A program made the translations under genes and the position numbers. The notes under the pieces are model-generated. The model saw only the letters and a program-made list of their open reading frames with translations. It had not been told where the DNA came from and did no database searches. From the NCBI GenBank assembly GCA_964590155.1, contig CAZPWC010000001.1, forward strand, positions 9,651 through 73,650: a stretch of 64,000 nt of DNA, given 5' to 3'. The stretch is from an uncultured archaeon (lineage in GTDB: Archaea > Iainarchaeota > Iainarchaeia > Iainarchaeales > JAAZKV01). This document shows positions 18,363 through 41,823 of the stretch, piece after piece (the first letter of the stretch is position 1; the number at the start of each line of letters is the position of its first letter).

Positions 18363-21335
18363 ATGCCTACAGATTATTTAGCTGAACTAATGAAAGATGC
18401 CAAATTAAAAGATACTGGCAAAATAGAGGAAAAAGAAGTCCCTACAAAACCAGAAGATAAAGAAGAACAATTAGCGCACGAAGCTGGAAAAAAACAAATG
18501 GAAAGTTTTAATGAAACATTTGAAATCGAGCCATCTGATCAAAAAGCCGAAACAGAAAAAGAATTAGAACAAGGGAAAAAAATCCAACTAAAAAGTTATG
18601 GAAATGTAAAAATATTTCAAATCCCAGGAAAGCCACTTAACTATTACTATGTCCCAACAATAAGACCATCAGCTGTTGAAAGAAAAATAATCAATACAAT
18701 AAAAGAAGCGACAACAAGATTAGTTAGCATTGCTTCTTACAAAATAAGAAACCCTGAAGAAAGAAGAATAATATACAAACAAAAAATAATTGAAATAATA
18801 CAAAACAATCCCTCGCTTAACATCCCTGAAAGCAGAGTTAATTATTACGCTGATGCCGTTGTAAGAGAAATGGTTGGATATGGATTAATTGACGAACTAA
18901 TCAAAGATGATAATTTAGAAGAAATAATGATTATCGGTCCGCAAAAACCTGTGTATGTATTTCATAGAGAATTCGAAATGATGACAACAAATGTTGAATT
19001 TTTTTCAGAACAAGAAATAGAAGATTTAATTAACAGAATAGCAAGAGAGGTTGGAAGAAGAGTTGATGTATCATCCCCCTTACTTGACGCAAGATTAATT
19101 GACGGATCACGTGTAAATGCAACTATCCCCCCAGCAAGCATAAGTGGAGGAACACTAACAATAAGAAAATTCAGACAAGACCCTTACTCAATAATTGATT
19201 TAGTGAAAATGGGAACATTAAGCAGTGAAGCGGCAGCGTTCTTGTGGGTTTGCGCTGACGGACTTGGCACAAAACCAGCAAACATACTAATCTCAGGAGG
19301 AACAGGTTCAGGAAAAACTACCCTCCTAAATGTACTTGCTTCATTTATTCCTGACCGAGAAAGAGTAATAACAATAGAAGACACAGCAGAACTAAATCTC
19401 CCAATAAAACACTGGATAAGAATGGAAGCACGACCGCCAGGAATAGAAGGAACTGGAGAACTAAAAATTGACATTCTTACAAAAAATTCACTAAGAATGA
19501 GACCTGATAGAATAATTGTAGGAGAAATAAGACACGAAGAAGCATTTACATTATTTACTGCAATAAATACAGGGCATGATGGAGCAACAACAGAGGATAC
19601 TTTAATTCAAATGGACGACGGCAACATAATCGAAATTGGAAAACTCGCCGAAAAATATATGACCACCCCAACAAAAGAAAAAGAATACGAATTCAGTGAA
19701 ATAAATGAGCCCCTGCTTGTGCCAAGTTTTAATAAAAAAACACTCCAAATAGAACCAAAACAAATAACAAAGATATGGAGAAAAAAAGTAACAGAAATGT
19801 TGTTAAAAATTAAACTAAAATCCGGAAAAGAAATTACAATAACACAAGACCACCCTTTTTATGTCGCACATAACGGAATACAAGAAATAAACGCTGAACG
19901 ATTACAAAAAGGGGATTTTATTTGCACGCCTGAAAAAATCCCATTATTTGCAGAAAGAAAACTAATAGAACCACACCTTGTAGGTCTAATATATGGAGAC
20001 GGACATGTTGGCCAAGAAGTAATAGAATTTGTAAACGCCGAAAAACAACTCGTAAATTCATTCATTGAATCAGCAAAAAATGTCACTCAAAACAAAATAA
20101 CCCAGAAAAGTTATGACAGATATAACCGTGCATTATTTTACGATAAGAAATTTATACGCGCCATGACAAAAGAGTATAATATTCCTCAAGGAAACAAAAC
20201 AAAATCTTTTAAGTTGGGTGAAGAAATACTTTGTGCAGAACAAAGTGAACTAGCACAATTAGTTAAAGGATTATTTGATAGCGAATCCCACGTAAATTTA
20301 CATTCAAACTCAATACAATTTGTTACTTCTAATAAAGATTTAGCAAACAAATTGCCACTCATTTTACAACGCTATGGAATAAAATCAAGCAAATATATAC
20401 AACAAAAAGACGGAAAGGGAAATACAGGACCCTACTACAAAATATCTATTTACGGTTTGGAAAACCTCAAACAATACAAAACATATATTGGATATGAGCA
20501 CACTAAAAAACGAGAAACTCTTGACACCTTATTAAAAAAAGCAAAACTGAGTGTAAATGTTATCCCCGGCTTATCAAAAGTATTAATTAATGCGAGAGCC
20601 GAAAACAATTTAACCCAAAAGGAACTAAGCGCACTTTTAGGAAACTCAACACCAAGCGTCATAAGCGCATACGAAACGAATCAAAGAAATCCAACAAAAG
20701 AACAAATAAAAAAAATAGGCCAAACAATTAATGGAGAAACCGCAAAACAATTAAGCAGACTCGCTGAATCAAAAATATTATTTGAAGAAATAACAGAAAT
20801 TAAAGAAATTAAACACGAAGGATATGTTTACGATTTAACGGTTAAAGATAATCATACATACATCGCAAACGGAACAATAATATCTAATTGCATGGGAACA
20901 GTACACGCAAATAGTCCGCAAGAAACAATAATTAGAGTAACAAACCCGCCGATGAATGTTCCACAAATTATGTTAAGCGGACTTGATTTTATAATTGTTG
21001 AACACAGATATTACGACAGAAAAAAAGGAACAATTAGAAGAGTGAGTGAAATTGCGGAAGTATATGGTGCTTTAGAAGGAAAACCAAGAGTACAAACAGT
21101 ATTTGCAAGAGACCCAGTAAAAGACAAACTAGAAAAAACAATACTTGACAGCTCTTACTTAAAAACCTTACAAGATTTTACTGGATTATCAAGAGAACAA
21201 ATAGAAGCAGAAATACAAATAAGAAAACAATTCTTAGAAAAACTAATTGAGAAAAATATAAGAGGATTAACGCAAGTATCTGAAGAAACAAAAGAATTCC
21301 TTGGCAAACGAAAAATATTCGGTGAACAACAATGA
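18363..21335 (+). CDS. type II/IV secretion-system ATPase (KlbA/FlaI/VirB11 family) interrupted by an intein
   Basis: Walker A ISGGTGSGKTTLLN; split motif NTGHDG | intein | CMGTVHANS. Confidence 0.85.
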   Translation: MPTDYLAELMKDAKLKDTGKIEEKEVPTKPEDKEEQLAHEAGKKQMESFNETFEIEPSDQKAETEKELEQGKKIQLKSYGNVKIFQIPGKPLNYYYVPTIRPSAVERKIINTIKEATTRLVSIASYKIRNPEERRIIYKQKIIEIIQNNPSLNIPESRVNYYADAVVREMVGYGLIDELIKDDNLEEIMIIGPQKPVYVFHREFEMMTTNVEFFSEQEIEDLINRIAREVGRRVDVSSPLLDARLIDGSRVNATIPPASISGGTLTIRKFRQDPYSIIDLVKMGTLSSEAAAFLWVCADGLGTKPANILISGGTGSGKTTLLNVLASFIPDRERVITIEDTAELNLPIKHWIRMEARPPGIEGTGELKIDILTKNSLRMRPDRIIVGEIRHEEAFTLFTAINTGHDGATTEDTLIQMDDGNIIEIGKLAEKYMTTPTKEKEYEFSEINEPLLVPSFNKKTLQIEPKQITKIWRKKVTEMLLKIKLKSGKEITITQDHPFYVAHNGIQEINAERLQKGDFICTPEKIPLFAERKLIEPHLVGLIYGDGHVGQEVIEFVNAEKQLVNSFIESAKNVTQNKITQKSYDRYNRALFYDKKFIRAMTKEYNIPQGNKTKSFKLGEEILCAEQSELAQLVKGLFDSESHVNLHSNSIQFVTSNKDLANKLPLILQRYGIKSSKYIQQKDGKGNTGPYYKISIYGLENLKQYKTYIGYEHTKKRETLDTLLKKAKLSVNVIPGLSKVLINARAENNLTQKELSALLGNSTPSVISAYETNQRNPTKEQIKKIGQTINGETAKQLSRLAESKILFEEITEIKEIKHEGYVYDLTVKDNHTYIANGTIISNCMGTVHANSPQETIIRVTNPPMNVPQIMLSGLDFIIVEHRYYDRKKGTIRRVSEIAEVYGALEGKPRVQTVFARDPVKDKLEKTILDSSYLKTLQDFTGLSREQIEAEIQIRKQFLEKLIEKNIRGLTQVSEETKEFLGKRKIFGEQQ
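19584..20888 (+). mobile_element. Ala1-type intein (435 aa) with LAGLIDADG homing endonuclease and an XRE-like HTH
   Basis: Block A ATTEDTLIQMDDGNIIEIGKL; LAGLIDADG motifs LVGLIYGDGHV and LVKGLFDSESHV; HTH LTQKELSALLGNSTPSVISAYE; ends IISN with Cys+1. Confidence 0.8.
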
Positions 21336-22429
21336 ATGATACTTTTTCATTTGACGAACAAGAAGTAAACAAAATCGTTGACACAATGAAAAAAAAATAT
21401 AAAGAAGAAGGACTTGTAATTGATGAAGTAAATACTAGCTTAAAAGAACTAAGAGGACTTATTGCGGAAGACACTTACTCTAAAATAGATATTGATAATG
21501 CTTCAGATGTTCAAGAAATAAGATCATCGCTAGCAAAAGTATTTGCAAATCTTTATTTAAAAATAAAAGGAATAATTAAACCCGCGCAAAAGTTTTTCAA
21601 AAACTTTACTGTCAGCCAAGAACTTGGATATTACTTATATTCAGCAAATATGAGTTACTCAGCAAACCAATACACAGCAATAGCTGTTACTGCCGGACTT
21701 GTTGTAGGATTATTTACAGCAATAATTGGATTACTAATTGGAATAACAACAAAAAATATTATTTTTATCACAACCCTCCCAATTGTAATTGGACTTATTG
21801 GATGGCTAGTTGGAACAATAATACTACTAATGATTCCAAAACAAAAAGCGGTTGCACGCGGAAATGCTTGCTCTGTTGAATTGCCATTTGCTTTAAGACA
21901 CATGTCAACCGAACTAAGATCGGGAATTGGATTATACAAAACACTACAAGCAGTGGCTTCGTCTAATTATGGAGTACTAAGCGAAGAATTTGCAAGAACA
22001 ATAACAGAAATAGAAGAAGGGGTTGATACAGGGGCTGCGCTAAAACACATGGCGCTAAGAACACAAAGCAAACCACTCAAAACAGTTGTAAACCACATGC
22101 TTAGAGCGATGAGGATAGGAGGAAATCTTTCCGAATCAATGAGCAACATAGCCAAAGATGTTTCTGATGATTTGAAAAACAAAATACTCGCTTTTTCACA
22201 AAACATGAACTTTTTTGCAGTAATATTTATCTTTATAGGAATAATTATTCCAGTAGCAATAATAATTTTAGGAGCAATAAGAAATTCTTCAATTGCAAAA
22301 GTAGGACAGGACTTGTTCAAATCAGTTCCATTAACTTTAGATGTCTTAATAGTAATTTATTTTGTTATAATGCCTATATTATTTATAATAATGAATATAT
22401 TTGTTTACAATGCGCAACCAAAAATGTGA
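21332..22429 (+). CDS. TadC/FlaJ-like pilus assembly membrane protein (single T2SS-F-like domain)
   Basis: Start overlaps the ATPase stop (ATGA). N-terminal soluble region followed by TM helices. Confidence 0.55.
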   Translation: MNDTFSFDEQEVNKIVDTMKKKYKEEGLVIDEVNTSLKELRGLIAEDTYSKIDIDNASDVQEIRSSLAKVFANLYLKIKGIIKPAQKFFKNFTVSQELGYYLYSANMSYSANQYTAIAVTAGLVVGLFTAIIGLLIGITTKNIIFITTLPIVIGLIGWLVGTIILLMIPKQKAVARGNACSVELPFALRHMSTELRSGIGLYKTLQAVASSNYGVLSEEFARTITEIEEGVDTGAALKHMALRTQSKPLKTVVNHMLRAMRIGGNLSESMSNIAKDVSDDLKNKILAFSQNMNFFAVIFIFIGIIIPVAIIILGAIRNSSIAKVGQDLFKSVPLTLDVLIVIYFVIMPILFIIMNIFVYNAQPKM

Positions 22430-23356
22430 GTGAAAAAAATGGGTTTGAATGAAATAGCAGAAAGATATGAGTACTGGGTTGAATTCAGCAAACTCAAATA
22501 CAAAGCAGAACCATGGGTACTAATAGCAATAGGAAGCTCTGTTACAGTCGGAATACTTTCATTCATGCTAAGCGTTGTTATAATAAAAGAAATTACATTA
22601 CTCCCCTTAGCTTTCTTTTTAGCAACATTTGTTTTACTAATGGGCTACCCTTACATGAAAAAAGAGTCAATAATTGATTCAATAGAAGACAATTTTAGTG
22701 ACGCGTTAAAACAAATGGCTGATACATTAAAAGCAGGAGATACTTACGAAAGCGCATTAAGAGAAGTAGCTAATTCTGAATATGGAAGATTATCTGAAGA
22801 AGTTAGCATTGCTTTAAGGAGACTTGAAGAAGGAGCCAACATGGAGACCTCACTAACGGGTCTTGCTGAAAGAATTGACTCAAGACTAGTTAAAAGAACA
22901 ATAACAATAATAGTTGATTCGGTAAAAACAGGAGCAAGCTTGGCCGATGTGCTTGACGAAATATCTGAAGATGTAAGAGAAATACACAAATTAAAAGAAG
23001 ACAGAAAAGCAAATACACAAATGCAATTCTTATTCATGGTCGCGGCAGGAGGATTTATTGCACCAATGATATTTGGAGAAATAACCGCAGTACTATCAAT
23101 ATTCAATGCAATAACAACGCAAGCAACACAAGCAGTTACAACAGCATCAATACAAAAAACTGATCAAGTAATAGCTGTGCTAATTCAAGGATACTTAATA
23201 ATAGAAGTTGTCGGAAGCGGAGTAATGATGGCAGTAACAAGAGAAGGAAAACCAAACAAAGCAATAATTTACATACCTTTATTATTATTAACAGCCTTTG
23301 TCGTATACTATACAACAGCATTTGTTATCAGAGGATTTTTGGCGGGAAGCATATGA
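22430..23356 (+). CDS. TadB/FlaJ-like pilus assembly membrane protein (second T2SS-F-like gene)
   Basis: Same architecture as the preceding gene and adjacent to it. Confidence 0.55.
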   Translation: MKKMGLNEIAERYEYWVEFSKLKYKAEPWVLIAIGSSVTVGILSFMLSVVIIKEITLLPLAFFLATFVLLMGYPYMKKESIIDSIEDNFSDALKQMADTLKAGDTYESALREVANSEYGRLSEEVSIALRRLEEGANMETSLTGLAERIDSRLVKRTITIIVDSVKTGASLADVLDEISEDVREIHKLKEDRKANTQMQFLFMVAAGGFIAPMIFGEITAVLSIFNAITTQATQAVTTASIQKTDQVIAVLIQGYLIIEVVGSGVMMAVTREGKPNKAIIYIPLLLLTAFVVYYTTAFVIRGFLAGSI

Positions 23357-23502
23357 TGGAAGAAAAAGCACAAGTACATTTAGAGTACTTACTAATAGCT
23401 ATTGGAGCAGTTGTTGTAGTAACAGTAGTAGCTTTGTACATTAAAGAAACTGCAAACAGCGCAGCACAAGCAACAATTGATCAAGCAAACCAAAACCCTT
23501 AA
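23353..23502 (+). CDS. short Flp-like prepilin (49 aa), class III signal peptide
   Basis: Hand translation MMEEKAQVHLEYLLIAIGAVVVVTVVALYIK...; not in the ORF track because it is under 60 aa. Confidence 0.5.
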   Translation: MMEEKAQVHLEYLLIAIGAVVVVTVVALYIKETANSAAQATIDQANQNP

Positions 23503-23544
23503 TAATTACTAAAATTAATTAAAGATAAAGAAAACCACTAAAAA

Positions 23545-23550
23545 GGAGGT
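23545..23550 (+). promoter_or_regulatory. Shine-Dalgarno GGAGGT 6 nt upstream of the pilin ATG at 23557
   Basis: aaaaGGAGGTttgattATG. Confidence 0.5.
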
Positions 23551-23556
23551 TTGATT

Positions 23557-23856
23557 ATGGAACAAAAAGCTCAGGCACCAAAGGCGCAGGGAGCAATAGA
23601 ATACCTACTAATAATAGGAGCAGCAATACTAGTAGTAGCAGTAGTAGTAATAGCACTAAGCGGAATAATTGGCGCTGGAAGTGATACTACCGACACAGAA
23701 GCAATAAATAGCACTTATAATGCACTGCAATGTCAAAAAGACTGCGGATATTTAGATGACGAAAGCGAAACATGCTGTGATTCATATAAAGACTATTGCA
23801 CATTACAAGGTCCGGACAGTGCAAAAACCTGCCAAAAAATAATTCCCGCGGAATAA
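23557..23856 (+). CDS. prepilin, Cys-rich paralog 1 (QGAIEYLL family)
   Basis: MEQKAQAPKAQGAIEYLLIIGAAILVVAVVVIAL, then a C-terminal domain with 7 Cys. The ORF-track start at 23551 is TTG. Confidence 0.6.
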   Translation: MEQKAQAPKAQGAIEYLLIIGAAILVVAVVVIALSGIIGAGSDTTDTEAINSTYNALQCQKDCGYLDDESETCCDSYKDYCTLQGPDSAKTCQKIIPAE

Positions 23857-24022
23857 ATAAAATTTAAACAAAGAAGGAAAGGAGAAGTAAAATCCTTTCC
23901 AACTTTCTTTTTTTAGACAAACCAAACTACAACAAATACAAAGTAAATCTAACAATAAGCCAACCTTTATATATCACTTATTTTATAGTTAAGTCAACGA
24001 AACCCCAACGGAGGTAATGAAA

Positions 24023-24298
24023 ATGGAAAAAAACGGACAAGGAGCAATAGAATACCTACTAATCATAGGAGCAGCAATACTAGTAGTAGCCGTAGTAGTA
24101 ATAGCACTAACTGGAGTACTAGATGCTGGTAATGATCAAACAAGCGATACTGATGTAGAAACATCACTTATGGCGCTAGAATGCCAAAAAGACAGCACAT
24201 ATTCACCAATGACATCACCTACTCAAACATGTTGTACAGAATTCCCTACGGAATATACAGCTACAAGCGGGACATGTTTACCAATAACAACCGCATAA
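24023..24298 (+). CDS. prepilin, Cys-rich paralog 2
   Basis: MEKNGQGAIEYLLIIGAAILVVAVVVIAL is near-identical to paralog 1 at the N-terminus. SD GGAGGT at 24010-24015. An alternative ATG lies at 24017. Confidence 0.6.
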   Translation: MEKNGQGAIEYLLIIGAAILVVAVVVIALTGVLDAGNDQTSDTDVETSLMALECQKDSTYSPMTSPTQTCCTEFPTEYTATSGTCLPITTA

Positions 24299-24496
24299 AA
24301 TAATTTTAACTAAAATTGGAAAGGAAAACAAAATCCTTTCCACTTTTTCTTTTTATCTGAACTTTCTTAAGCGCCAAAAAATTGCGAAGCAAAGCCAATC
24401 ACAGAGTGGTTGGCTCCCATACGCTCGCCTGCCCTTTAGGGGTGGGCCGGGCAAGCAATGCGATAGCTTTAAATTTAGAAAAAAGTTTAGATAGTA

Positions 24497-24835
24497 GTGG
24501 TGGTTGTTATACAAAGAGGACAGGGAGCAATAGAATACTTACTTCTTTTAGCGGCAGCAATTGTTGTTGTAGCAATAGTTGTTTCATTTTTGGGTTCAAC
24601 AATAGGGCCTGTCCAAGATACGGGCGACAATGAAACATACTCATACTTATGCGAACCAAAACCACAAGGACTTGAATCAGGCACTGCACAATGCGCATGC
24701 TATAATGGAAATTCGAACAATTACTTTGATACCACCGCAGAAGCAAAAGAGTATTGTTGCGAAGGGCAAAATAGCGCTTATTTGAAAATGAAATGGAACC
24801 AATCACGAACAGTTGATGCTGAAAAGTGTTCATAA
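24497..24835 (+). CDS. prepilin, Cys-rich paralog 3 (GTG start or degenerate)
   Basis: RGQGAIEYLLLLAAAIVVVAIVV; no ATG and no clear SD. Confidence 0.45.
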   Translation: MVVVIQRGQGAIEYLLLLAAAIVVVAIVVSFLGSTIGPVQDTGDNETYSYLCEPKPQGLESGTAQCACYNGNSNNYFDTTAEAKEYCCEGQNSAYLKMKWNQSRTVDAEKCS

Positions 24836-24850
24836 TAGAAGGAATTTTTT

Positions 24851-25021
24851 ATGGAAGAACGAGCACAAGTAAGTTTTGAATATTTGCTAACAGCGGTTTT
24901 TGCAATAGGATTAGCTATAAGCGCCGCAATATTAATTGAAACACTAAGACAACTTGCTTTGGAAGCCCAAGCAGAACTATTAACAGTAAGAACAAGAGTA
25001 ATAGAAGGATTAATGCAATAA
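24851..25021 (+). CDS. short Flp-like prepilin (56 aa)
   Basis: MEERAQVSFEYLLTAVFAIGLAISAAILIE resembles the 23353 gene. Confidence 0.5.
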   Translation: MEERAQVSFEYLLTAVFAIGLAISAAILIETLRQLALEAQAELLTVRTRVIEGLMQ

Positions 25022-25120
25022 CACAAATTATTGAAAGGACAACAAAAAACAAATTAATTAAAAGAAAAAACACAAAAAGCAACTTTTTTAATAAGGAAAA
25101 ACAACAATTAGCTGATACTA

Positions 25121-26209
25121 ATGATATATTATTTGCCAATAATAGTTTCCGTAATCGGACTAAGCATAGCAACATACACTGATCTGAAAGAAAGGATAGT
25201 TACAAACAAACTTAATTTTGGGTTAGCTGGAATTGGACTAATTCTTTACGGGATAATTGCAGTAATGGAAAACAGCCCGATAATATTTCTAATGTCAATT
25301 TTGGGTTTAATGTACGGATTTGTTTTCGGGTGGATCTTATGGAAACTCGGAATATTTGCTGGAGGGGATGTAAAATTATTCATGGCTTTAGGCGCGCTAA
25401 ATCCGCTAACACCCGCACTAGTACAAACAGGGATACTAACAACATCAAACACCCCCCTATTTCCAATAACTTTGTTTATTTATTCATTGGTTTCTTTCCT
25501 CCCTTACGGATTTTTAGTAGTGCTGCAAAAACTAAGCAAAAATAAAGAATTCAGAAAAAAATTGTGGATAGAAACAAAAAAAAGAATAGCTGACGGAATA
25601 AACCTATCTGTTTTTTCAGGGGCGCTGTACACAATATTTACTACGACTCAAATCCCCACTCTAATAGTTCTGCCACTAATAATTATTTGGGGATTAAGAA
25701 AAGAAAGAAATGCTTTGACAGTCGGAGCAACTCTTGCAGCAATAATAATTTCTCCGCAAGAATTTGTAAAAAATATTTTTGCAACACTAATAATAGTTGT
25801 AATTATTTACGGAATAATAAAATTAATGCTGTCACTAAGACCGCTACTTGTAAGCGAGGTAAATGTAAGCAAATTAGAAGAAGGGATGATTCCTGCAAAA
25901 ACACTTGTATGGAAAGGAAAAAAAGTTGTTGAAATTGAACCGCTTTCCATCGCAAGCGCATTTATGGCGCTAAAAAAAAGAAAAACAACAGAACTATTAA
26001 AACCAAGAAAAGAGATAATTTCTGCAATGAAAGCACGAGGATTGATTAATGAAGAAATCAAAGAACTAAAAACACTCGCAAAAAAAGGATTAATAAGCAA
26101 AAAGATGCAAATAAAAGAATCAATGCCCTTTGTGCCAACAATGTTAATAGGATACATCATTTGTTTAATTGCAGGCGACGCAATATGGATAGTTATTTTT
26201 GGATTGTGA
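25121..26209 (+). CDS. prepilin/preflagellin peptidase (A24 family, FlaK/PibD/EppA-like)
   Basis: Catalytic Asp motifs TDLKERIVTN and FAGGDVKLFMALGA; polytopic membrane protein. Confidence 0.75.
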   Translation: MIYYLPIIVSVIGLSIATYTDLKERIVTNKLNFGLAGIGLILYGIIAVMENSPIIFLMSILGLMYGFVFGWILWKLGIFAGGDVKLFMALGALNPLTPALVQTGILTTSNTPLFPITLFIYSLVSFLPYGFLVVLQKLSKNKEFRKKLWIETKKRIADGINLSVFSGALYTIFTTTQIPTLIVLPLIIIWGLRKERNALTVGATLAAIIISPQEFVKNIFATLIIVVIIYGIIKLMLSLRPLLVSEVNVSKLEEGMIPAKTLVWKGKKVVEIEPLSIASAFMALKKRKTTELLKPRKEIISAMKARGLINEEIKELKTLAKKGLISKKMQIKESMPFVPTMLIGYIICLIAGDAIWIVIFGL

Positions 26210-26218
26210 AGTGATACA

Positions 26219-26662
26219 ATGAAAAGAGGACAAACTTCAATAGAGTTCATATTTTTGATACTAATAATAGTTATTTACTTAGTGACAATAGTTCGACCAG
26301 CATTTGATAGCGCGCAAAGCTCTTTTGAGGACATAGATAAAGTAACAAAAGCAAGCAACGAAACACAAAAAATAGTAAACTCAATAAACAGAATAAGCTC
26401 ACTAAGTGATGGGTCAAAAGAAACACTATTCATTACTTTGCCGGAAGGAGTGGAGATAAATTGTTATAACGAAGGAAAACTTGATTTTATGGTAGAAATA
26501 AATACTAATGGCATAAACCCCAACATAGAAAGCTGCGCAAAAGATGTGTGCCAAAAAGAATATCAAACGTCGCCACTCAACTGTGAAATTACACAAATAC
26601 TTGGCGCAGAAAAAATAATTGTAGAAAAAGATGGAACAACAATAACAATAAAAGTCGGGTGA
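26219..26662 (+). CDS. prepilin-like protein
   Basis: MKRGQTSIEFIFLILIIVIYLV class III signal. Confidence 0.55.
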   Translation: MKRGQTSIEFIFLILIIVIYLVTIVRPAFDSAQSSFEDIDKVTKASNETQKIVNSINRISSLSDGSKETLFITLPEGVEINCYNEGKLDFMVEINTNGINPNIESCAKDVCQKEYQTSPLNCEITQILGAEKIIVEKDGTTITIKVG

Positions 26663-26666
26663 TTAT

Positions 26667-27002
26667 TTGAGAGGACAAGTAGCATTTGAAACACTATTTG
26701 TGTTTGTAATAATACTAACCACAACAATCTTTCTAACAAGTCTTTTTTTGCAAACTAACGAAGCAACAATATCAGAAAGCTTAGCTAGAAATGCGGTAAC
26801 TGAACAAGCCGCTTTGCAGGGAAAAAAAATTGTTATAGAAAGTGTTTCTTTTGAAAAAACAACAAATATAATAATAACAATAAATGTAATGTGCGAAGAA
26901 ATCCAAGAAACGATATTTGACACCCAAAAAATAGAAGATCTAATTGAAGAAAAAACAAGCGCGCAAAATGCGGGAATAGTAATAAATAAAAAGCAACTCT
27001 AG
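26667..27002 (+). CDS. prepilin-like protein
   Basis: MRGQVAFETLFVFVIILTTTIFL. Confidence 0.5.
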   Translation: MRGQVAFETLFVFVIILTTTIFLTSLFLQTNEATISESLARNAVTEQAALQGKKIVIESVSFEKTTNIIITINVMCEEIQETIFDTQKIEDLIEEKTSAQNAGIVINKKQL

Positions 27003-27062: not shown

Positions 27063-27395
27063 ATGGATGACAAAAAAATAACGCTTATTTGCGGAGCGAT
27101 AGTTCTTTTTGGAATAATTATTTCAGCAATGTTCTATGAACCTGAATTTCAAAACACTTCAATAAAAGAAATGCTAAACACAAAAGAATCAGCAAAAGGA
27201 ATTATTTTTGCCAGAGTTGATTATGTAATAAAAAATTATCCAACAACGCAAGCGATAATAAATGACGGAACGACAGCAACCATTTACTATCCAAAAGAAA
27301 CTAATCTGAAAAAGAATGATTTTGTATACGCTTATCTTGAAACAGAAGACAAAAACAAAAAAACTTTTTACGCCTACAAACTGGTGAAAGATTGA
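27063..27395 (+). CDS. single-pass membrane protein
   Basis: N-terminal TM ITLICGAIVLFGIIISAMF. Confidence 0.35.
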   Translation: MDDKKITLICGAIVLFGIIISAMFYEPEFQNTSIKEMLNTKESAKGIIFARVDYVIKNYPTTQAIINDGTTATIYYPKETNLKKNDFVYAYLETEDKNKKTFYAYKLVKD

Positions 27396-28549
27396 TTGCA
27401 GGCATAATTATAGGAACAATACTTGGAATAATCGCAGGACTAATGCCAGGACTACACACAAATAACATAGCTCTAATGCTTATACTTCTGCCAATCGCTG
27501 ATGAAGAGCTTGTTACAATTATCTTAACACTTGCAATAGTGCAAACTTTTGTCGAATTCATTCCAGCAACTTTTCTTGGCGCACCCACAGCAAACACCTT
27601 TGAGGGAGTGCTTCCCGCACACAAAATGTTTTTGGAAGGAAAAGCCCTTGAAGCAATAATGCTATCAATTTACGGGGGGATAATAGGAACTGTATTAAGT
27701 GTTTTTTTAGCGCCACTATTTTTTTTATTTATAGAAAAAAACTCAAAAGAAATAATTCTTGTAACCCCGTTAATATTAATATTCGCGATAATAATTATGG
27801 TAAATAGTGAAAATACCGCCAGAAAGAAAGTTATTGCATTACTAATTGTTATTGGAGCGGCAACACAAGGAATGTTTTTTAAGGATCAATTATTTCCACT
27901 AATAACAGGATATTTTGGATTAGCTACTTTGCTTTATTCTTTGAAAGAAAAAAACAAATATGTCAAGCAAGAAGAAAAGATAAATGTTAAATGTAATTAC
28001 TTACAAACAGGGATAGGCGCTTTTGGGGGAACGATAGTAGCTTTAATGCCTGGAATAGGAACTAATACCGCGGCGGGAATAATAAGAACATTTCAAAACA
28101 AAATTAACGGGAAAGATTATTTATCAATGATAGGAGCCATAAATATTTCAAATTTCTTTTTTGGATACGCTGCACTATTTGCATTAGGAAAAACAAGAAA
28201 CGGGGCAATGGTTGCAATGCAAAACAAAATTATGACAACCCAAGAACAGTTAATCTTTGGAATAATAATAATGATTATTGCTACAGGAATTGGAGCAATA
28301 TCAACAATAATCCTATCAAAAAAAGCAATTCACCTTTTCAATGAAAAAAGAACAATAACACTCACAAAAATAAGCATAATGATAATGATTCTTCTTGTAG
28401 GACTATTCAACGGAGCGACAGGAATAATTTGCCTTGTTTTCTCAACTTCCTTAGGATTAATAACAAACACACAAAAAGTGAAAAGAAGCCTTTGCATGTC
28501 AGCGCTAATCGTACCAACCCTGTTTTTCTATCTATTCATCCTGATTTAA
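27392..28549 (+). CDS. TctA-family (DUF112) membrane protein
   Basis: Repeated GLMPGLH and ALMPGIGTNTAAGII motifs. Confidence 0.45.
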   Translation: MIAGIIIGTILGIIAGLMPGLHTNNIALMLILLPIADEELVTIILTLAIVQTFVEFIPATFLGAPTANTFEGVLPAHKMFLEGKALEAIMLSIYGGIIGTVLSVFLAPLFFLFIEKNSKEIILVTPLILIFAIIIMVNSENTARKKVIALLIVIGAATQGMFFKDQLFPLITGYFGLATLLYSLKEKNKYVKQEEKINVKCNYLQTGIGAFGGTIVALMPGIGTNTAAGIIRTFQNKINGKDYLSMIGAINISNFFFGYAALFALGKTRNGAMVAMQNKIMTTQEQLIFGIIIMIIATGIGAISTIILSKKAIHLFNEKRTITLTKISIMIMILLVGLFNGATGIICLVFSTSLGLITNTQKVKRSLCMSALIVPTLFFYLFILI

Positions 28550-28566
28550 TTTATGTGGACAAACTT

Positions 28567-28929
28567 ATGTGGACAATAAAAAAGATTCTTTTAGAAGAAA
28601 TTTGCATATCGGCAAAAAGATACTACCCTAAAGAATTCCTCTGCTTTCTTGGCGGAAGCAAAAAAGAAAAAAAAGCTGATGAAATAGTTCTTTTGCCAAA
28701 TACAAGCGGAAATGATTATGCAAGCATATTTGATACTGCAATACCAATTGACGACACTATTGTTGGAAGTGTTCACTCACACCCTAACAGTTACGCTTTA
28801 CCAAGCACAGCAGATAAAAAGTTTTTCCAACGATATGAAATAAATGCAATAATTGACGGGAGCTATGCTCCCCAAAAAGTTCGCTTTTTTGATAACAAAG
28901 GAAATGAGGTAAAAGTCGTTATAGAGTAG
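28567..28929 (+). CDS. JAMM/MPN+ metalloprotease domain protein
   Basis: JAMM motif GSVHSHPNSYALPSTAD. ATG at 28567, inside ORF-track entry 28429..28929. Confidence 0.65.
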   Translation: MWTIKKILLEEICISAKRYYPKEFLCFLGGSKKEKKADEIVLLPNTSGNDYASIFDTAIPIDDTIVGSVHSHPNSYALPSTADKKFFQRYEINAIIDGSYAPQKVRFFDNKGNEVKVVIE

Positions 28930-28979
28930 ATTAAAATCTTTAAGGCAAAATTAAAAAGCAGAAAAACAATTAATTAAAC

Positions 28980-29384
28980 ATGAAAACGGCTTTTAAAAAA
29001 GGGCAAATAAGCATTGACCTCATTATGATAATACTCGTTATTGTTGTTGCGCTTGGCGGATTAACAATGATTACAGCCAGCCTTTCCACAACGCAAGAAA
29101 AAATAAACATACACCAAGAACTTGAAAGAAGTGCGCTAAAAATATCAAACGCAATAATATACGCAAAAACACTTGACGGAACCACTTTTGAAATAATAAT
29201 AAATCTTCCAAAAATAAGGTACAAAAAACTGAGTGGAAATCAACTTGTTAGCGTAACTGAAAATGAAGTAACAATAACAGAAACAATTAGTGGAGAAAAT
29301 ATTACAGTCGTTGAAAAAACAAATAAACCTGATTGGATGCAAGTAACTACAACACAAACACAAGTGGTGATACAAAATGCGTAA
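28980..29384 (+). CDS. prepilin-like protein
   Basis: MKTAFKKGQISIDLIMIILVIVVALGG. Confidence 0.5.
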   Translation: MKTAFKKGQISIDLIMIILVIVVALGGLTMITASLSTTQEKINIHQELERSALKISNAIIYAKTLDGTTFEIIINLPKIRYKKLSGNQLVSVTENEVTITETISGENITVVEKTNKPDWMQVTTTQTQVVIQNA

Positions 29385-29871
29385 AGGCCAGATATTTTCC
29401 ATAGATTTTCTTATAGCAATGATAATAGTAGTACTAATCATTGGAACATTTGTTTTAATTGTTGAAAAGAAGAATTTTGATGCACGAGAGAATTTTGAAG
29501 CAACAAAACTAGAACAAAAATTGGGAGCGGCTGTCTTTGCCCTCATCAACACTAATTATTCGTGCGAAGCGGAAGGATCTAAAATCATGTACAGCATCGA
29601 TAAGGAAAAAGTACTGGCTGAAAAAGACACGCTAAAAGAAAAACTTGGAATGATGGATTATAGCCTGCAAATAAAATTAATTGGCACAGGAGAAACAGAA
29701 ATATTAAATGAAGACGAAACAGGACGAAATATTTATGTTATTGATTTTGATATAATGGTTTGCGAAAACAGCAGTGGGATAGATCTTAATGATACTTTTT
29801 ATTGTTCTAACGGAACGTGTGAAAATGGAAATTTGAAGAAAGAAAAACTAATTATTGGGGCGAGGAAATGA
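29377..29871 (+). CDS. prepilin-like protein
   Basis: MRKGQIFSIDFLIAMIIVVLIIGTF; overlaps its neighbours by 4-8 nt. Confidence 0.5.
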   Translation: MRKGQIFSIDFLIAMIIVVLIIGTFVLIVEKKNFDARENFEATKLEQKLGAAVFALINTNYSCEAEGSKIMYSIDKEKVLAEKDTLKEKLGMMDYSLQIKLIGTGETEILNEDETGRNIYVIDFDIMVCENSSGIDLNDTFYCSNGTCENGNLKKEKLIIGARK

Positions 29872-41739: not shown

Positions 41740-41823
41740 CGGGCCCGGAGGGAATCGAACCCCCATCTCGAGATAGCTTCTTATTTCCGAAGTCTCGCCG
41801 CTTATCCATTGGCAGACGGGCCC
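41740..41823 (-). tRNA. tRNA-Arg(TCG) with 12-nt intron at 37/38
   Basis: Minus-strand fold: acceptor GGGCCCG/CGGGCCC; D-arm with GG in loop; anticodon stem CGAGA/TCTCG; loop CTTCGG|intron|A; T-arm GGGGG-TTCGATT-CCCTC. Intron 41775..41786. Confidence 0.6.

What the first reader, a model, noticed from the sequence alone, without database searches (positions are those of the whole stretch)
23557..24835. Three tandem pilin paralogs with conserved N-terminus and divergent Cys-rich C-terminal domains
Paralogs 1 and 2 are near-identical over (K)GQGAIEYLLIIGAAILVVAVVVIAL, then diverge completely into short domains with 5-7 Cys each (CQKDCGYLDD..CCDSYKDYC..C and CQKDSTY..CCTEF..C). The third copy has a GTG start and no SD, so it may be decaying. 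Extracellular Cys-rich tips suggest disulfide-stabilised or metal-binding adhesive modules that vary between copies, as in antigenic variation or receptor diversification.
Basis: seen in the sequence. Interest (0 to 1): 0.55.

Follow-up and report, generated by a model that had tools for sequence, protein, structure and literature searches.

The report
Archaeal pilin genes with disulfide-rich heads
The three genes are real pilus-subunit (type IV pilin) genes in the pilus-assembly locus of a small DPANN archaeon, each with a tiny, probably disulfide-bonded head; this is an ordinary kind of gene cluster whose head domains nobody has described.

Summary
Three tandem + strand genes (23557-23856, 24023-24298, 24497-24835) share a class III signal peptide and hydrophobic helix (…QGAIEYLL…), followed by short Cys-rich C-termini with 6, 4 and 6 Cys, not 5-7.

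They lie in a complete archaeal type IV pilus locus of the Epd-like "system 1" kind: ATPase, two platform proteins, seven class III proteins and an EppA-like prepilin peptidase. The locus is syntenic in more than 12 Iainarchaeota (DPANN) genomes.

The three genes fall into two families.
- **Type 1 (genes 1 and 2):** a very conserved stem with fast-evolving heads built on discrete Cys frameworks. They occupy a slot whose copy number varies and that holds headless versions in some relatives.
- **Type 2 (gene 3):** a conserved single-copy orthologue, up to 70% identical over its full length, always in the same position. It has a conserved TATA box about 26 nt upstream, so the mRNA is probably leaderless. 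It is not decaying.

Cys counts are even in 91 of 92 family members, and Cys are gained or lost in pairs. That favours disulfides over metal binding. Nothing supports antigenic variation. Receptor or host-adhesion diversification is plausible but untested. The heads match no Pfam, NCBIfam or PDB entry.

Verdict: real, ordinary in kind, modest interest.

The parts
18363..21335 (+). Pilus assembly ATPase (T2SSE family) interrupted by an intein with LAGLIDADG and HTH domains
   Evidence: Pfam T2SSE 3.5e-38, Intein_splicing 3.5e-25, LAGLIDADG_3, HTH_3. The same arrangement occurs in L009; L003 has an intein-less 321-aa version.
21332..22429 (+). Platform protein 1 (TadB/TadC-like, T2SSF domain)
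   Evidence: Pfam T2SSF 4.3e-22. 60% identical to the L003 orthologue.
22430..23356 (+). Platform protein 2 (T2SSF domain)
   Evidence: Pfam T2SSF 3.8e-16. Two platform genes are the mark of clade 1 / system 1 loci (PMC4858521; bioRxiv 10.64898/2026.04.22.720090).
23353..23502 (+). Short class III pilin 'A' (48-49 aa, headless): MEEKA|QVHLEYLL…
   Evidence: Weak PF04021 hit. Conserved at this position in L003, L007, L009, L011-L013, L015 and L019.
23557..23856 (+). Type 1 Cys-head pilin 1 (99 aa). Leader MEQKAQAPKA, mature QGAIEYLL…, 6 Cys in the framework C-3-C-9-CC-6-C-10-C. AGGAGG lies 5 nt upstream (23546-23551).
   Evidence: AF2 model pLDDT 77.2.
23876..23914 (+). Hairpin GGAAAGGA…TCCTTTCC followed by a T-run: likely terminator of pilin 1
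   Evidence: Read from the sequence. Repeated after pilin 2 (D4 and I6).
24023..24298 (+). Type 1 Cys-head pilin 2 (91 aa from ATG 24023; the ORF opens at 24017). Leader MEKNG, 4 Cys in the framework C-15-CC-13-C.
   Evidence: (P0006, 91 aa).
24317..24355 (+). Hairpin plus T-run: likely terminator of pilin 2
   Evidence: stem of 9 pairs, then CTTTTTCTTT, I8.
24370..24465 (.). GC-rich structured intergenic element (two hairpins inside an outer stem) just upstream of the pilin 3 promoter. Possible regulatory region with TGCGA(A/T)AGC repeats.
   Evidence: unique in the window; no Rfam hit; partly conserved only in L008, with a different hairpin 1. The fold z-score is only -1.8.
24460..24475 (+). 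Promoter-like GCGATAGC + TTTAAATT (BRE/TATA) about 26 nt upstream of the GTG of pilin 3
   Evidence: The same string occurs in L007 and L008, and TTTAAAT in L003, L005 and L009 at the same place. The role as a promoter is inferred.
24497..24835 (+). Type 2 Cys-head pilin 3 (112 aa from GTG 24497, or 111 aa from GTG 24500). Mature QGAIEYLLLLAAAIVVVAIVVSF…, 6 Cys in the framework C-13-C-1-C-18-CC-22-C.
   Evidence: AF2 model pLDDT 77.5, all-helical head.
24851..25021 (+). Short class III pilin 'E' (56 aa): MEERA|QVSFEYLLTAVFAI…, helical tail
   Evidence: 61-72% identical to the L003 and L005 orthologues, the best-conserved pilin of the locus. Present in all syntenic loci.
25121..26209 (+). Prepilin (class III signal) peptidase, A24 family with archaeal C-terminal domains (EppA-like). 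Carries the two catalytic Asp motifs YTD(21)L and AGGD(83).
   Evidence: Pfam Peptidase_A24 2e-13, Arc_PepC 1.9e-10, Arc_PepC_II 5e-8. Full-length but low-scoring alignment to the NCBIfam EppA model. Asp motifs read from the translation.
26219..26662 (+). Class III pilin-like protein (147 aa, 4 Cys): MKRG|QTSIEFIF…
   Evidence: PF04021 7.2e-6. Conserved in the syntenic loci.
26667..27002 (+). Class III pilin-like protein (111 aa): (M)RG|QVAFETLF…
   Evidence: Motif and synteny. No Pfam hit.

Best explanation
The three ORFs are archaeal type IV pilins, that is, class III signal-peptide proteins. They belong to an Epd/Tad-like ('clade 1 / system 1') pilus locus of an Iainarchaeota (DPANN) archaeon.

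Proposed mechanism:
1. Each precursor inserts into the membrane.
2. The locus-encoded EppA-like A24 peptidase removes the 5-10 residue leader after Gly/Ala(-1). This exposes Gln(+1) of QGAIEY, with Glu+5 and Tyr+6 as in Flp pilins.
3. The ATPase and the two platform proteins polymerise the hydrophobic N-terminal helices into the filament core.
4. The 35-60 residue C-terminal heads end up on the filament surface. Each head is locked by 2 or 3 disulfides.

Genes 1 and 2 (type 1) occupy a variable slot. In relatives this slot holds 1-2 copies, either headless (57-65 aa, Flp/EpdE-like) or with heads built on at least five different Cys frameworks. I infer that these are the major, or alternative major, surface-defining subunits and that the heads set adhesion specificity.

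Gene 3 (type 2) is a conserved single-copy subunit with its own promoter. With the two short pilins and the two larger pilin-like proteins it most likely acts as a minor pilin, in initiation or at the tip.

Shown here: family membership by motif and profile, locus composition, synteny, the conservation pattern, and the Cys parity and pairing pattern.

Inferred: cleavage, assembly, disulfide formation, the major/minor assignment and the adhesive role.
For: - **Signal and locus.** PF04021 hits on all three genes. The leader ends in G/A and is followed by +1 Q and +5 E, exactly the features reported for EppA substrates in M. maripaludis (PMC3875500). The flanking genes are a T2SSE ATPase, two T2SSF proteins and an A24 peptidase with Arc_PepC domains. 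Two platform genes plus EppA define clade 1 / system 1, which is reported in methanogens, Thermococcales and DPANN.
- **Real genes.** Identical or related products are called in public assemblies. There are 183 hits for gene 1 and 38 for gene 3, several of them named 'class III signal peptide-containing protein' from Ca. Iainarchaeum or Diapherotrites MAGs.
- **Synteny.** The order shortA - type 1 (x1-2) - type 2 (x1) - shortE - peptidase - ~147-150-aa pilin-like protein (- ~104-111-aa one where detected) recurs wholly or in part in L003, L005, L007-L013, L018 and L019.
- **Conservation pattern.** In type 1, the N-terminal 28 aa are 83% identical on average and the rest 24%. In type 2 the figures are 83% and 34%. 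Gene 3 has 70% and 67% full-length orthologues and four invariant Cys.
- **Disulfides.** Cys counts are 4, 6 or 8 in 91 of 92 proteins. In type 2 an optional Cys pair is present or absent together. Gene 2 lacks exactly two of gene 1's Cys.
- **Fold.** AF2 gives a long N-terminal helix plus a small head at pLDDT about 77 for both families.
- **Separate expression units.** Genes 1 and 2 each have a Shine-Dalgarno (SD) sequence (GGAGG) upstream and a hairpin plus T-run after them. Gene 3 has a conserved TATA box.
Against: - There is no expression, proteomic or imaging evidence.
- The major/minor assignment is a guess. A headless type 1 pilin could be encoded outside the 64 kb window, as the M. 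maripaludis major pilin is encoded away from its locus.
- Gene 1's PF04021 score (22.8) is just under the cut-off (23.7).
- The peptidase scores far below the curated EppA threshold (40 against 450 bits), so it is EppA-like by architecture only.
- The AF2 models have only medium confidence (pTM 0.40-0.51), and I could not inspect the coordinates for S-S geometry.
- Many of these organisms live in anoxic groundwater or sediment, where extracellular disulfides are less obviously favoured.
- At the divergence of the available relatives (ThrRS 75%, peptidase 50%), the heads (20-34% identity) are not dramatically faster-evolving than the other pilin-like proteins of the locus (32-39%).
Confidence: 0.8

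Rival explanations
1. Programmed antigenic or phase variation. The tandem copies would serve as a recombination reservoir, with gene conversion between the conserved 5' ends shuffling heads in and out of an expression site, as in Neisseria pilE/pilS.
For: The paralogues share conserved 5' blocks and similar 3' hairpins flanking divergent heads. In L005 the two type 1 copies have 99% identical N-terminal DNA.
Against: Every copy is a complete gene with its own start, leader and SD or TATA box; there are no silent cassettes. N-terminal DNA identity between genes 1 and 2 (0.90) equals or is below that to the L008 orthologue from another genome (0.89-0.93), so purifying selection plus A-ending codon bias is sufficient. 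Contigs from two other samples are 100% and 99.9% identical across the array. No inverted repeats or recombinase genes lie in the array.
Confidence: 0.04
2. Gene 3 (GTG start, no SD) is a decaying pseudogene copy of the other two.
For: It has a GTG start and no GGAGG upstream, and the 198-nt upstream spacer is unusual.
Against: The reading frame is intact. Orthologues are 70% and 67% identical over the full length, four Cys are invariant across 38 proteins, and the position in the synteny is fixed. A conserved TATA box about 26 nt upstream points to a leaderless mRNA. A leader of 7-8 aa matches the family mode.
Confidence: 0.02
3. The Cys-rich heads bind metals (Zn, Fe or Cu) or carry redox-active thiols, rather than forming structural disulfides.
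For: The Cys density is high (4-6 in about 40-60 residues), with CC and CxC pairs. The hosts often live in anoxic habitats.
Against: Even Cys parity in 91/92 proteins and pairwise gain and loss are the signature of disulfides. There are no CxxC…CxxC knuckles, no CxxCH motif and no conserved His partners. The location is extracellular.
Confidence: 0.07
4. They are not filament subunits. Instead they would be class III-signal surface proteins or exported disulfide-rich peptides (pseudopilin- or bindosome-like, or toxin- or defensin-like effectors) that merely use the peptidase and secretion machinery.
For: Archaeal class III signals are also used by non-pilin substrates, such as the Sulfolobus sugar-binding proteins (PMC4858521). 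The same type 1 N-module is fused to 250-420-aa domains in other genomes. The type 2 head also occurs behind a non-class III membrane anchor (P0161, P0163). The discrete Cys frameworks with variable loops resemble those of secreted mini-proteins.
Against: The stem is strongly conserved and Flp-like (E5, Y6), which is typical of polymerising subunits. Headless type 1 versions of 57-65 aa can hardly be anything but filament subunits. The genes are tightly embedded between the platform and peptidase genes.
Confidence: 0.1

Closest known systems
Epd pili of Methanococcus maripaludis (EppA-processed pilins EpdA-E; clade 1 / 'system 1' archaeal type IV filament loci)
   Same: The pilins have short leaders ending in Gly, +1 Gln, +5 Glu and a PF04021/DUF361-type N-terminus. 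There is a dedicated long A24 peptidase with archaeal C-terminal domains, two platform-protein genes and one ATPase. The locus holds many class III proteins, including very small ones.
   Different: Here the candidate major-type pilins sit inside the locus and carry small Cys-rich heads. The M. maripaludis major pilin EpdE is headless, Cys-free as far as I know (my own knowledge) and encoded elsewhere. These pilins have Tyr at +6, which M. maripaludis pilins lack (PMC3875500). The peptidase is only remotely similar to the EppA model. The host is a DPANN archaeon.
Bacterial Flp/Tad pilins
   Same: The stem is very short and hydrophobic with a G|xxxxEY arrangement (Glu5-Tyr6). The platform is TadB/TadC-like and made of two proteins. 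Headless relatives are 57-65 aa. One relative (P0015) is annotated by JGI as 'Flp pilus assembly pilin Flp'.
   Different: There is no match to the Pfam Flp_Fap model even at E<=10. The three window genes add disulfide-rich heads that Flp pilins lack. The machinery is archaeal.
Bacterial type IVa pilins with a C-terminal disulfide-bonded D-region, and modular pilins such as S. sanguinis PilB
   Same: A conserved polymerisation helix carries a variable, disulfide-stabilised, surface-exposed C-terminal part. The same stem is grafted onto different modules, from headless to 420-aa heads, in related genomes (PMC8179133 for the modular-pilin concept).
   Different: There is no alpha-beta roll head. 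The heads are only 35-60 residues with 2-3 disulfides, and neither predicted fold matches anything in the PDB.
Cys-rich pilins of Thermoproteales subclade 4E type IV pili
   Same: These are archaeal pilin-like proteins with multiple conserved cysteines, proposed to form stabilising disulfides (PMC4858521; bioRxiv 10.64898/2026.04.22.720090).
   Different: They belong to a different T4P clade, a different pilin family (PilA-type) and a hyperthermophilic host. No sequence relationship was detected here.

Membership tests
Archaeal class III signal-peptide pilins (Pfam PF04021 / DUF361 / UPF0333; EppA-type substrates) | Profile match to PF04021 at or above the gathering score | tested here: met
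   Gene 2 scores 27.3-27.4 bits and gene 3 scores 29.2 bits against a cut-off of 23.7. Gene 1 scores 22.8 bits, marginally below.
Archaeal class III signal-peptide pilins (Pfam PF04021 / DUF361 / UPF0333; EppA-type substrates) | Short charged leader ending in Gly/Ala, then +1 Gln and +5 Glu, followed by a hydrophobic helix of about 20 residues | tested here: met
   The three cleavage contexts are MEQKAQAPKA|QGAIEYLLIIGAAILVVAVVVIAL, MEKNG|QGAIEY… and (M)VVVIQRG|QGAIEYLLLLAAAIVVVAIVV. The criteria come from PMC3875500.
Archaeal class III signal-peptide pilins (Pfam PF04021 / DUF361 / UPF0333; EppA-type substrates) | Cleavage by a prepilin peptidase and incorporation into a filament | not testable with these tools
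   Needs biochemistry or imaging. Only the adjacent A24 peptidase gene, with both Asp motifs, is shown.
Clade 1 / system 1 (Epd-like) archaeal type IV filament locus | One secretion ATPase plus two platform (TadC-like, T2SSF) genes | tested here: met
   T2SSE at 18363-21335; T2SSF at 21332-22429 and 22430-23356.
Clade 1 / system 1 (Epd-like) archaeal type IV filament locus | Dedicated long (9-TM) prepilin peptidase EppA (arCOG02300) | tested here: inconclusive
   The protein is 362 aa, with Peptidase_A24, Arc_PepC and Arc_PepC_II domains. It aligns over 7-330 of the 334 positions of the NCBIfam EppA model, but at only 40 bits against a cut-off of 450. TM topology and arCOG membership were not tested.
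Clade 1 / system 1 (Epd-like) archaeal type IV filament locus | Several (about 5 or more) pilin-like class III proteins in the locus | tested here: met
   Seven class III ORFs lie between 23353 and 27002.
Bacterial Flp/Fap pilins (Pfam PF04964) | Flp motif with adjacent Glu5-Tyr6 after the cleavage site | tested here: met
   Q1-G-A-I-E5-Y6 in all three genes.
Bacterial Flp/Fap pilins (Pfam PF04964) | Profile match to Flp_Fap, and a small headless mature protein | tested here: not met
   No PF04964 hit at E<=10. The mature proteins are 86-104 aa and have heads. They work like Flp pilins but are not members of the family.
Antigenically variable pilin systems (pilE/pilS type) | Silent, promoterless partial cassettes plus an expression locus, with sequence mosaicism between copies or strains | tested here: not met
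   All copies are complete genes. There is no excess DNA identity between the paralogues, and no variation in two independent contigs.

The most novel reading that the evidence does not exclude
Iainarchaeota pili are a modular display system. One nearly invariant Flp-like stem (QGAIEYLLIIGAAILVVA…) carries interchangeable heads, ranging from none, through at least five families of 35-60-residue disulfide-knotted mini-proteins, to 250-420-aa lectin-like domains. On this reading the fast-evolving mini-heads, such as those of genes 1 and 2, are the host- or substrate-recognition determinants that set the partner specificity of these DPANN cells. They would be new disulfide-rich folds with no relative in the PDB.
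Probability: 0.25. Interest if true: 0.55.

Novelty: new member of a known kind. Interest (0 to 1): 0.3.

Why it matters
DPANN archaea are thought to depend on physical contact with other cells, and pili are the prime candidates for making that contact. Their pilins, however, are almost all annotated only as 'hypothetical' or 'class III signal peptide' proteins.

This locus gives a clean, syntenic example with two kinds of slot. The core subunits are fixed: type 2, the two short pilins and the two larger pilin-like proteins. One slot is variable and holds headless or disulfide-rich type 1 pilins.

If the small heads prove to be adhesins, they would be compact new disulfide-rich domains and useful markers of host range. 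If not, the result is simply a better annotation of an ordinary archaeal pilus operon.

Tried and rejected
- **RNA searches.** Rfam at gathering thresholds on the whole window, and at E<=1 on 23300-25200, found nothing in the array. ARAGORN found nothing there either.
- **Structure comparison.** Foldseek of both AF2 models against the PDB gave 0 hits for type 2 and no hit better than E=4 for type 1. PDB sequence searches with both family profiles gave only insignificant N-helix similarity to archaellins.
- **Family scans.** Pfam at E<=10 on the isolated heads and NCBIfam on all the pilins returned no family. The only hit was a spurious sub-threshold Rv0361 match.
- **Type 2 head alone.** A search of 1.84 billion representatives gave 8 hits. 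The credible ones all sit behind a hydrophobic N-helix. P0162, P0164 and P0165 are low-complexity or repeat artefacts.
- **Gene conversion.** I considered it as the cause of the near-identical 5' ends and rejected it, because orthologues in other genomes are equally similar at DNA level.
- **Antisense ORF.** The 108-aa ORF at 24507-24833 on the minus strand was set aside: it has no support, whereas the + frame has conserved homologues.
- **Bacterial-type scan.** The sigma-70 and terminator scan is uninformative for promoters in an archaeon, with 7 found against 5.9 expected.
- **Literature.** Searches for DPANN or Iainarchaeota Cys-rich pilins found no description.
- **Model coordinates.** These were not available to me, so predicted S-S distances could not be measured.
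Full report
**1. What is in the sequence**

The + strand between 23353 and 27002 carries seven small ORFs. Each begins with a short charged leader, then Gln and a hydrophobic stretch (…(K/R/N)(A/G)|Q-x-x-(I/L/F)-E-(Y/F/T)-L…).

The three ORFs of the finding are 23557-23856 (99 aa), 24017/24023-24298 (93/91 aa) and 24497-24835 (112 aa, GTG start). Genes 1 and 2 are identical over QGAIEYLLIIGAAILVVAVVVIAL. At DNA level the N-terminal block recurs three times: 106 nt at 86% and 64% identity to the reference copy. Pfam's Class III signal peptide model hits all three, at 22.8, 27.3 and 29.2 bits against a cut-off of 23.7.

The mature parts contain 6, 4 and 6 Cys, not 5-7. A scan of the whole 64 kb window finds this motif nowhere else.

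**2. Context**

The neighbours form a complete archaeal type IV filament locus:
- a T2SSE ATPase (18363-21335, interrupted by a LAGLIDADG/HTH intein);
- two T2SSF platform proteins (21332-22429, 22430-23356);
- after the pilins, an A24 prepilin peptidase with the archaeal Arc_PepC domains (25121-26209).

The peptidase has both catalytic Asp motifs, YTDL and AGGD (translation). It aligns end to end with the NCBIfam EppA model, but far below its threshold.

ThrRS, ABCE1 and a Pelota/eRF1-like gene nearby, together with the names of related MAGs (Ca. Iainarchaeum, Ca. Forterrea, Diapherotrites), place the window in a roughly 34% GC Iainarchaeota (DPANN) archaeon.

Two platform genes plus an EppA-type peptidase and many class III proteins are the definition of Makarova et al.'s clade 1. 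This is 'system 1' of a 2026 preprint, which reports it in methanogens, Thermococcales and some DPANN. The leader features match those described for EppA substrates in Methanococcus maripaludis: 5-13 aa ending in Gly, +1 Gln, +5 Glu (PMC3875500). Unlike the Methanococcus pilins, these also have Tyr at +6, the bacterial Flp motif. They do not match the Pfam Flp model.

**3. Two families, not three equivalent paralogues**

Homologue searches returned 183 relatives of gene 1 and 38 of gene 3.

*Type 2 (gene 3).* Its relatives share a distinct stem (QGAIEYLLLLAAAIVVVA-V-SF--TIGPVQDTG) and a conserved head. The first Cys lies at mature position 44 in 37 of 38 proteins. Four Cys are invariant and a CxCY motif is conserved. 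The closest orthologues are 70% and 67% identical over the full length.

In every syntenic locus recovered, one such gene sits immediately before a 56-58-aa pilin (MEERAQVSFEYLLTAVFAI…) and the peptidase. A GCGATAGC-TTTAAATT element lies about 26 nt upstream of the GTG. It is identical in L007 and L008, and TTTAAAT occupies the same place in L003, L005 and L009. That is the geometry of an archaeal BRE/TATA promoter driving a leaderless mRNA, which explains the absence of an SD. The 7-8-aa leader is the family norm. Gene 3 is therefore a conserved, functional-looking gene and is not decaying.

*Type 1 (genes 1 and 2).* The stem QGAIEYLLIIGAAILVVA-V-IA is 83% identical on average across 54 proteins, while the rest is 24% identical.

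The slot between short pilin A and the type 2 gene holds one or two type 1 genes. They are headless (57-65 aa) in L003, L008, L009, L011, L016 and L018. They are Cys-headed (85-107 aa) in the window and in L003, L005, L007, L010, L012, L013, L015, L018 and L019. Elsewhere in these genomes the same stem is fused to 250-420-aa domains (L021-L027, L030).

The heads fall into discrete Cys frameworks:
- Gene 1 is C-3-C-9-CC-6-C-10-C, shared with P0010, P0029, P0033, P0038 and P0120. Only 6-11 of about 38-41 non-Cys positions are identical.
- Gene 2 is C-15-CC-13-C, shared with P0069.
- Genes 1 and 2 still align through the head (16/44 identical), and gene 2 lacks exactly Cys2 and Cys5 of gene 1. 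They have not diverged completely.

**4. Disulfides or metal**

Of 92 family members, 91 have an even number of Cys in the mature part (4, 6 or 8).

In type 2, the optional Cys come and go together. The second C of the CC pair and the C-terminal C are both present in 19 proteins. Twelve lack the optional Cys altogether. The remaining 7 pair the C-terminal C with a different extra Cys.

Pairwise gain and loss plus the parity rule is what disulfide-bonded domains show. There are no CxxC or CxxCH motifs and no conserved His partners. I therefore favour 2-3 structural disulfides per head. This is inference, because the AF2 coordinates could not be inspected.

**5. Structure and database comparison**

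AlphaFold2 with the family alignments gives medium-confidence models:
- Type 2: pLDDT 77.5, a long N-terminal helix followed by four short helices.
- Type 1: pLDDT 77.2, two helices followed by a short helix and a beta-hairpin.

Neither model has a significant Foldseek match in the PDB. The family profiles find no solved relative by sequence. The isolated heads match no Pfam family.

A head-only search of 1.84 billion representative proteins found only a handful of type 2 heads, always behind a hydrophobic N-terminal helix. Two of them have an ordinary, non-class III anchor. The held literature contains no description of Cys-rich pilins in DPANN or Iainarchaeota. Cys-rich pilins are, however, noted for an unrelated Thermoproteales system.

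**6.

*Antigenic variation.* Every copy is a complete gene. No silent cassettes, recombinase genes or local inverted repeats are present. The N-terminal DNA identity between genes 1 and 2 (0.90) is matched by their identity to the orthologue in another genome (0.89-0.93 to L008). Purifying selection and A-ending codon bias are therefore enough to explain it. Contigs from two other samples are 100% and 99.9% identical to the window over the array.

*Hypervariability.* This is real for the loops of type 1 heads. However, at the divergence of the available relatives (ThrRS 75%, peptidase 50-52%), the heads (about 20-34% identity) are only somewhat more diverged than the other pilin-like proteins (32-39%).

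*Receptor diversification.* This remains a reasonable but untested idea.

**7. Most likely mechanism**

The precursors are cleaved after Gly/Ala(-1) by the locus peptidase. Their Flp-like helices are polymerised by the ATPase and the two platform proteins, and the disulfide-locked heads decorate the filament surface.

Three things lead me to assign type 1 pilins as major, or alternative major, subunits that define the surface:
- their headless relatives resemble the roughly 60-aa major pilins of Epd/Tad systems;
- their stem is the most conserved;
- genes 1 and 2 each have their own GGAGG and hairpin/T-run terminator.

Type 2, the short pilins A and E, and the 147- and 111-aa proteins would then be minor pilins. 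This assignment is the weakest step, because a headless major pilin could be encoded outside the window.

**8. Verdict**

The feature is real. It is a new, and better resolved, member of a known kind: an Epd/Tad-like archaeal type IV pilus locus with multiple pilins. The Cys-rich mini-heads are undescribed and have no structural relatives, which gives modest interest. The 'decaying copy' and 'antigenic variation' readings are not supported. Disulfide stabilisation is supported indirectly.

Noticed in passing
window 18363-21335: The pilus ATPase gene is split by an intein carrying LAGLIDADG homing-endonuclease and HTH domains, making a 990-aa product. The L009 orthologue (993 aa) has the same arrangement, while L003 has an intein-less 321-aa ATPase.
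   Followed up: partly
window 24370-24465 (and L008 ~325-410): A GC-rich (~55-60% in a 34% GC genome) 95-nt intergenic element with two hairpins inside an outer stem, lying between the pilin 2 terminator and the pilin 3 promoter. It is shared only with L008, where hairpin 1 has a different but still self-complementary sequence and the outer stem shows a compensatory change. It contains TGCGA(A/T)AGC repeats. It has no Rfam match and the fold z-score is only -1.8. It may be a regulator-binding region or a small RNA.
   Followed up: partly
window 23557-23586; P0002, P0026, P0028, P0035, P0150, P0156, P0157; L003 8001-8051: Some pilins of both families have extended leaders that repeat the cleavage motif. 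Gene 1 has MEQKAQ-APKAQGAIEYLL. Others have …AQGAIE-PF-K(10-12 aa)AQGAIEYLL. This suggests a duplicated or decoy peptidase site or a two-step processing signal.
   Followed up: no
L021-L027, L030 (Iainarchaeota/Nanoarchaeota MAG contigs): The same type 1 stem (QGAIEYLLIIGAAILVVAIVIIA) is fused to large 250-420-aa C-terminal domains. Several of these share a '…SGAYVRLNNHYYLKSDP…' start, and three stand in tandem in L022. This points to modular pilins with big heads outside the core locus.
   Followed up: no
L009 5598-5930: A tandem extra copy of the type 2 pilin with an internal duplication (VISFLVIISFLVI) and Glu5 replaced by Lys (QGAIKYLL). This copy, unlike window gene 3, does look degenerate.
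   Followed up: no
P0161, P0163: The type 2 Cys head (…Y-x-C…DCACY-N-NYF…YCC…L--KFGC) also occurs behind an ordinary hydrophobic N-terminal anchor that lacks the class III motif. The head is therefore an independent module.
   Followed up: no
window 41740-41823 (- strand): Rfam reports a tRNA here (42.8 bits) that ARAGORN did not report. It may be an intron-containing or otherwise atypical archaeal tRNA.
   Followed up: no
window 27063-29871 and L003, L005, L008, L009: The pilus locus is always followed by the same genes: a ~110-aa membrane protein, a TctA-family transporter, a JAB-domain protein and three small unknowns before ABCE1. L005 and L008 add a Laminin_G_3 protein at this point. Whether any of these belong to the pilus system is unknown.
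   Followed up: no
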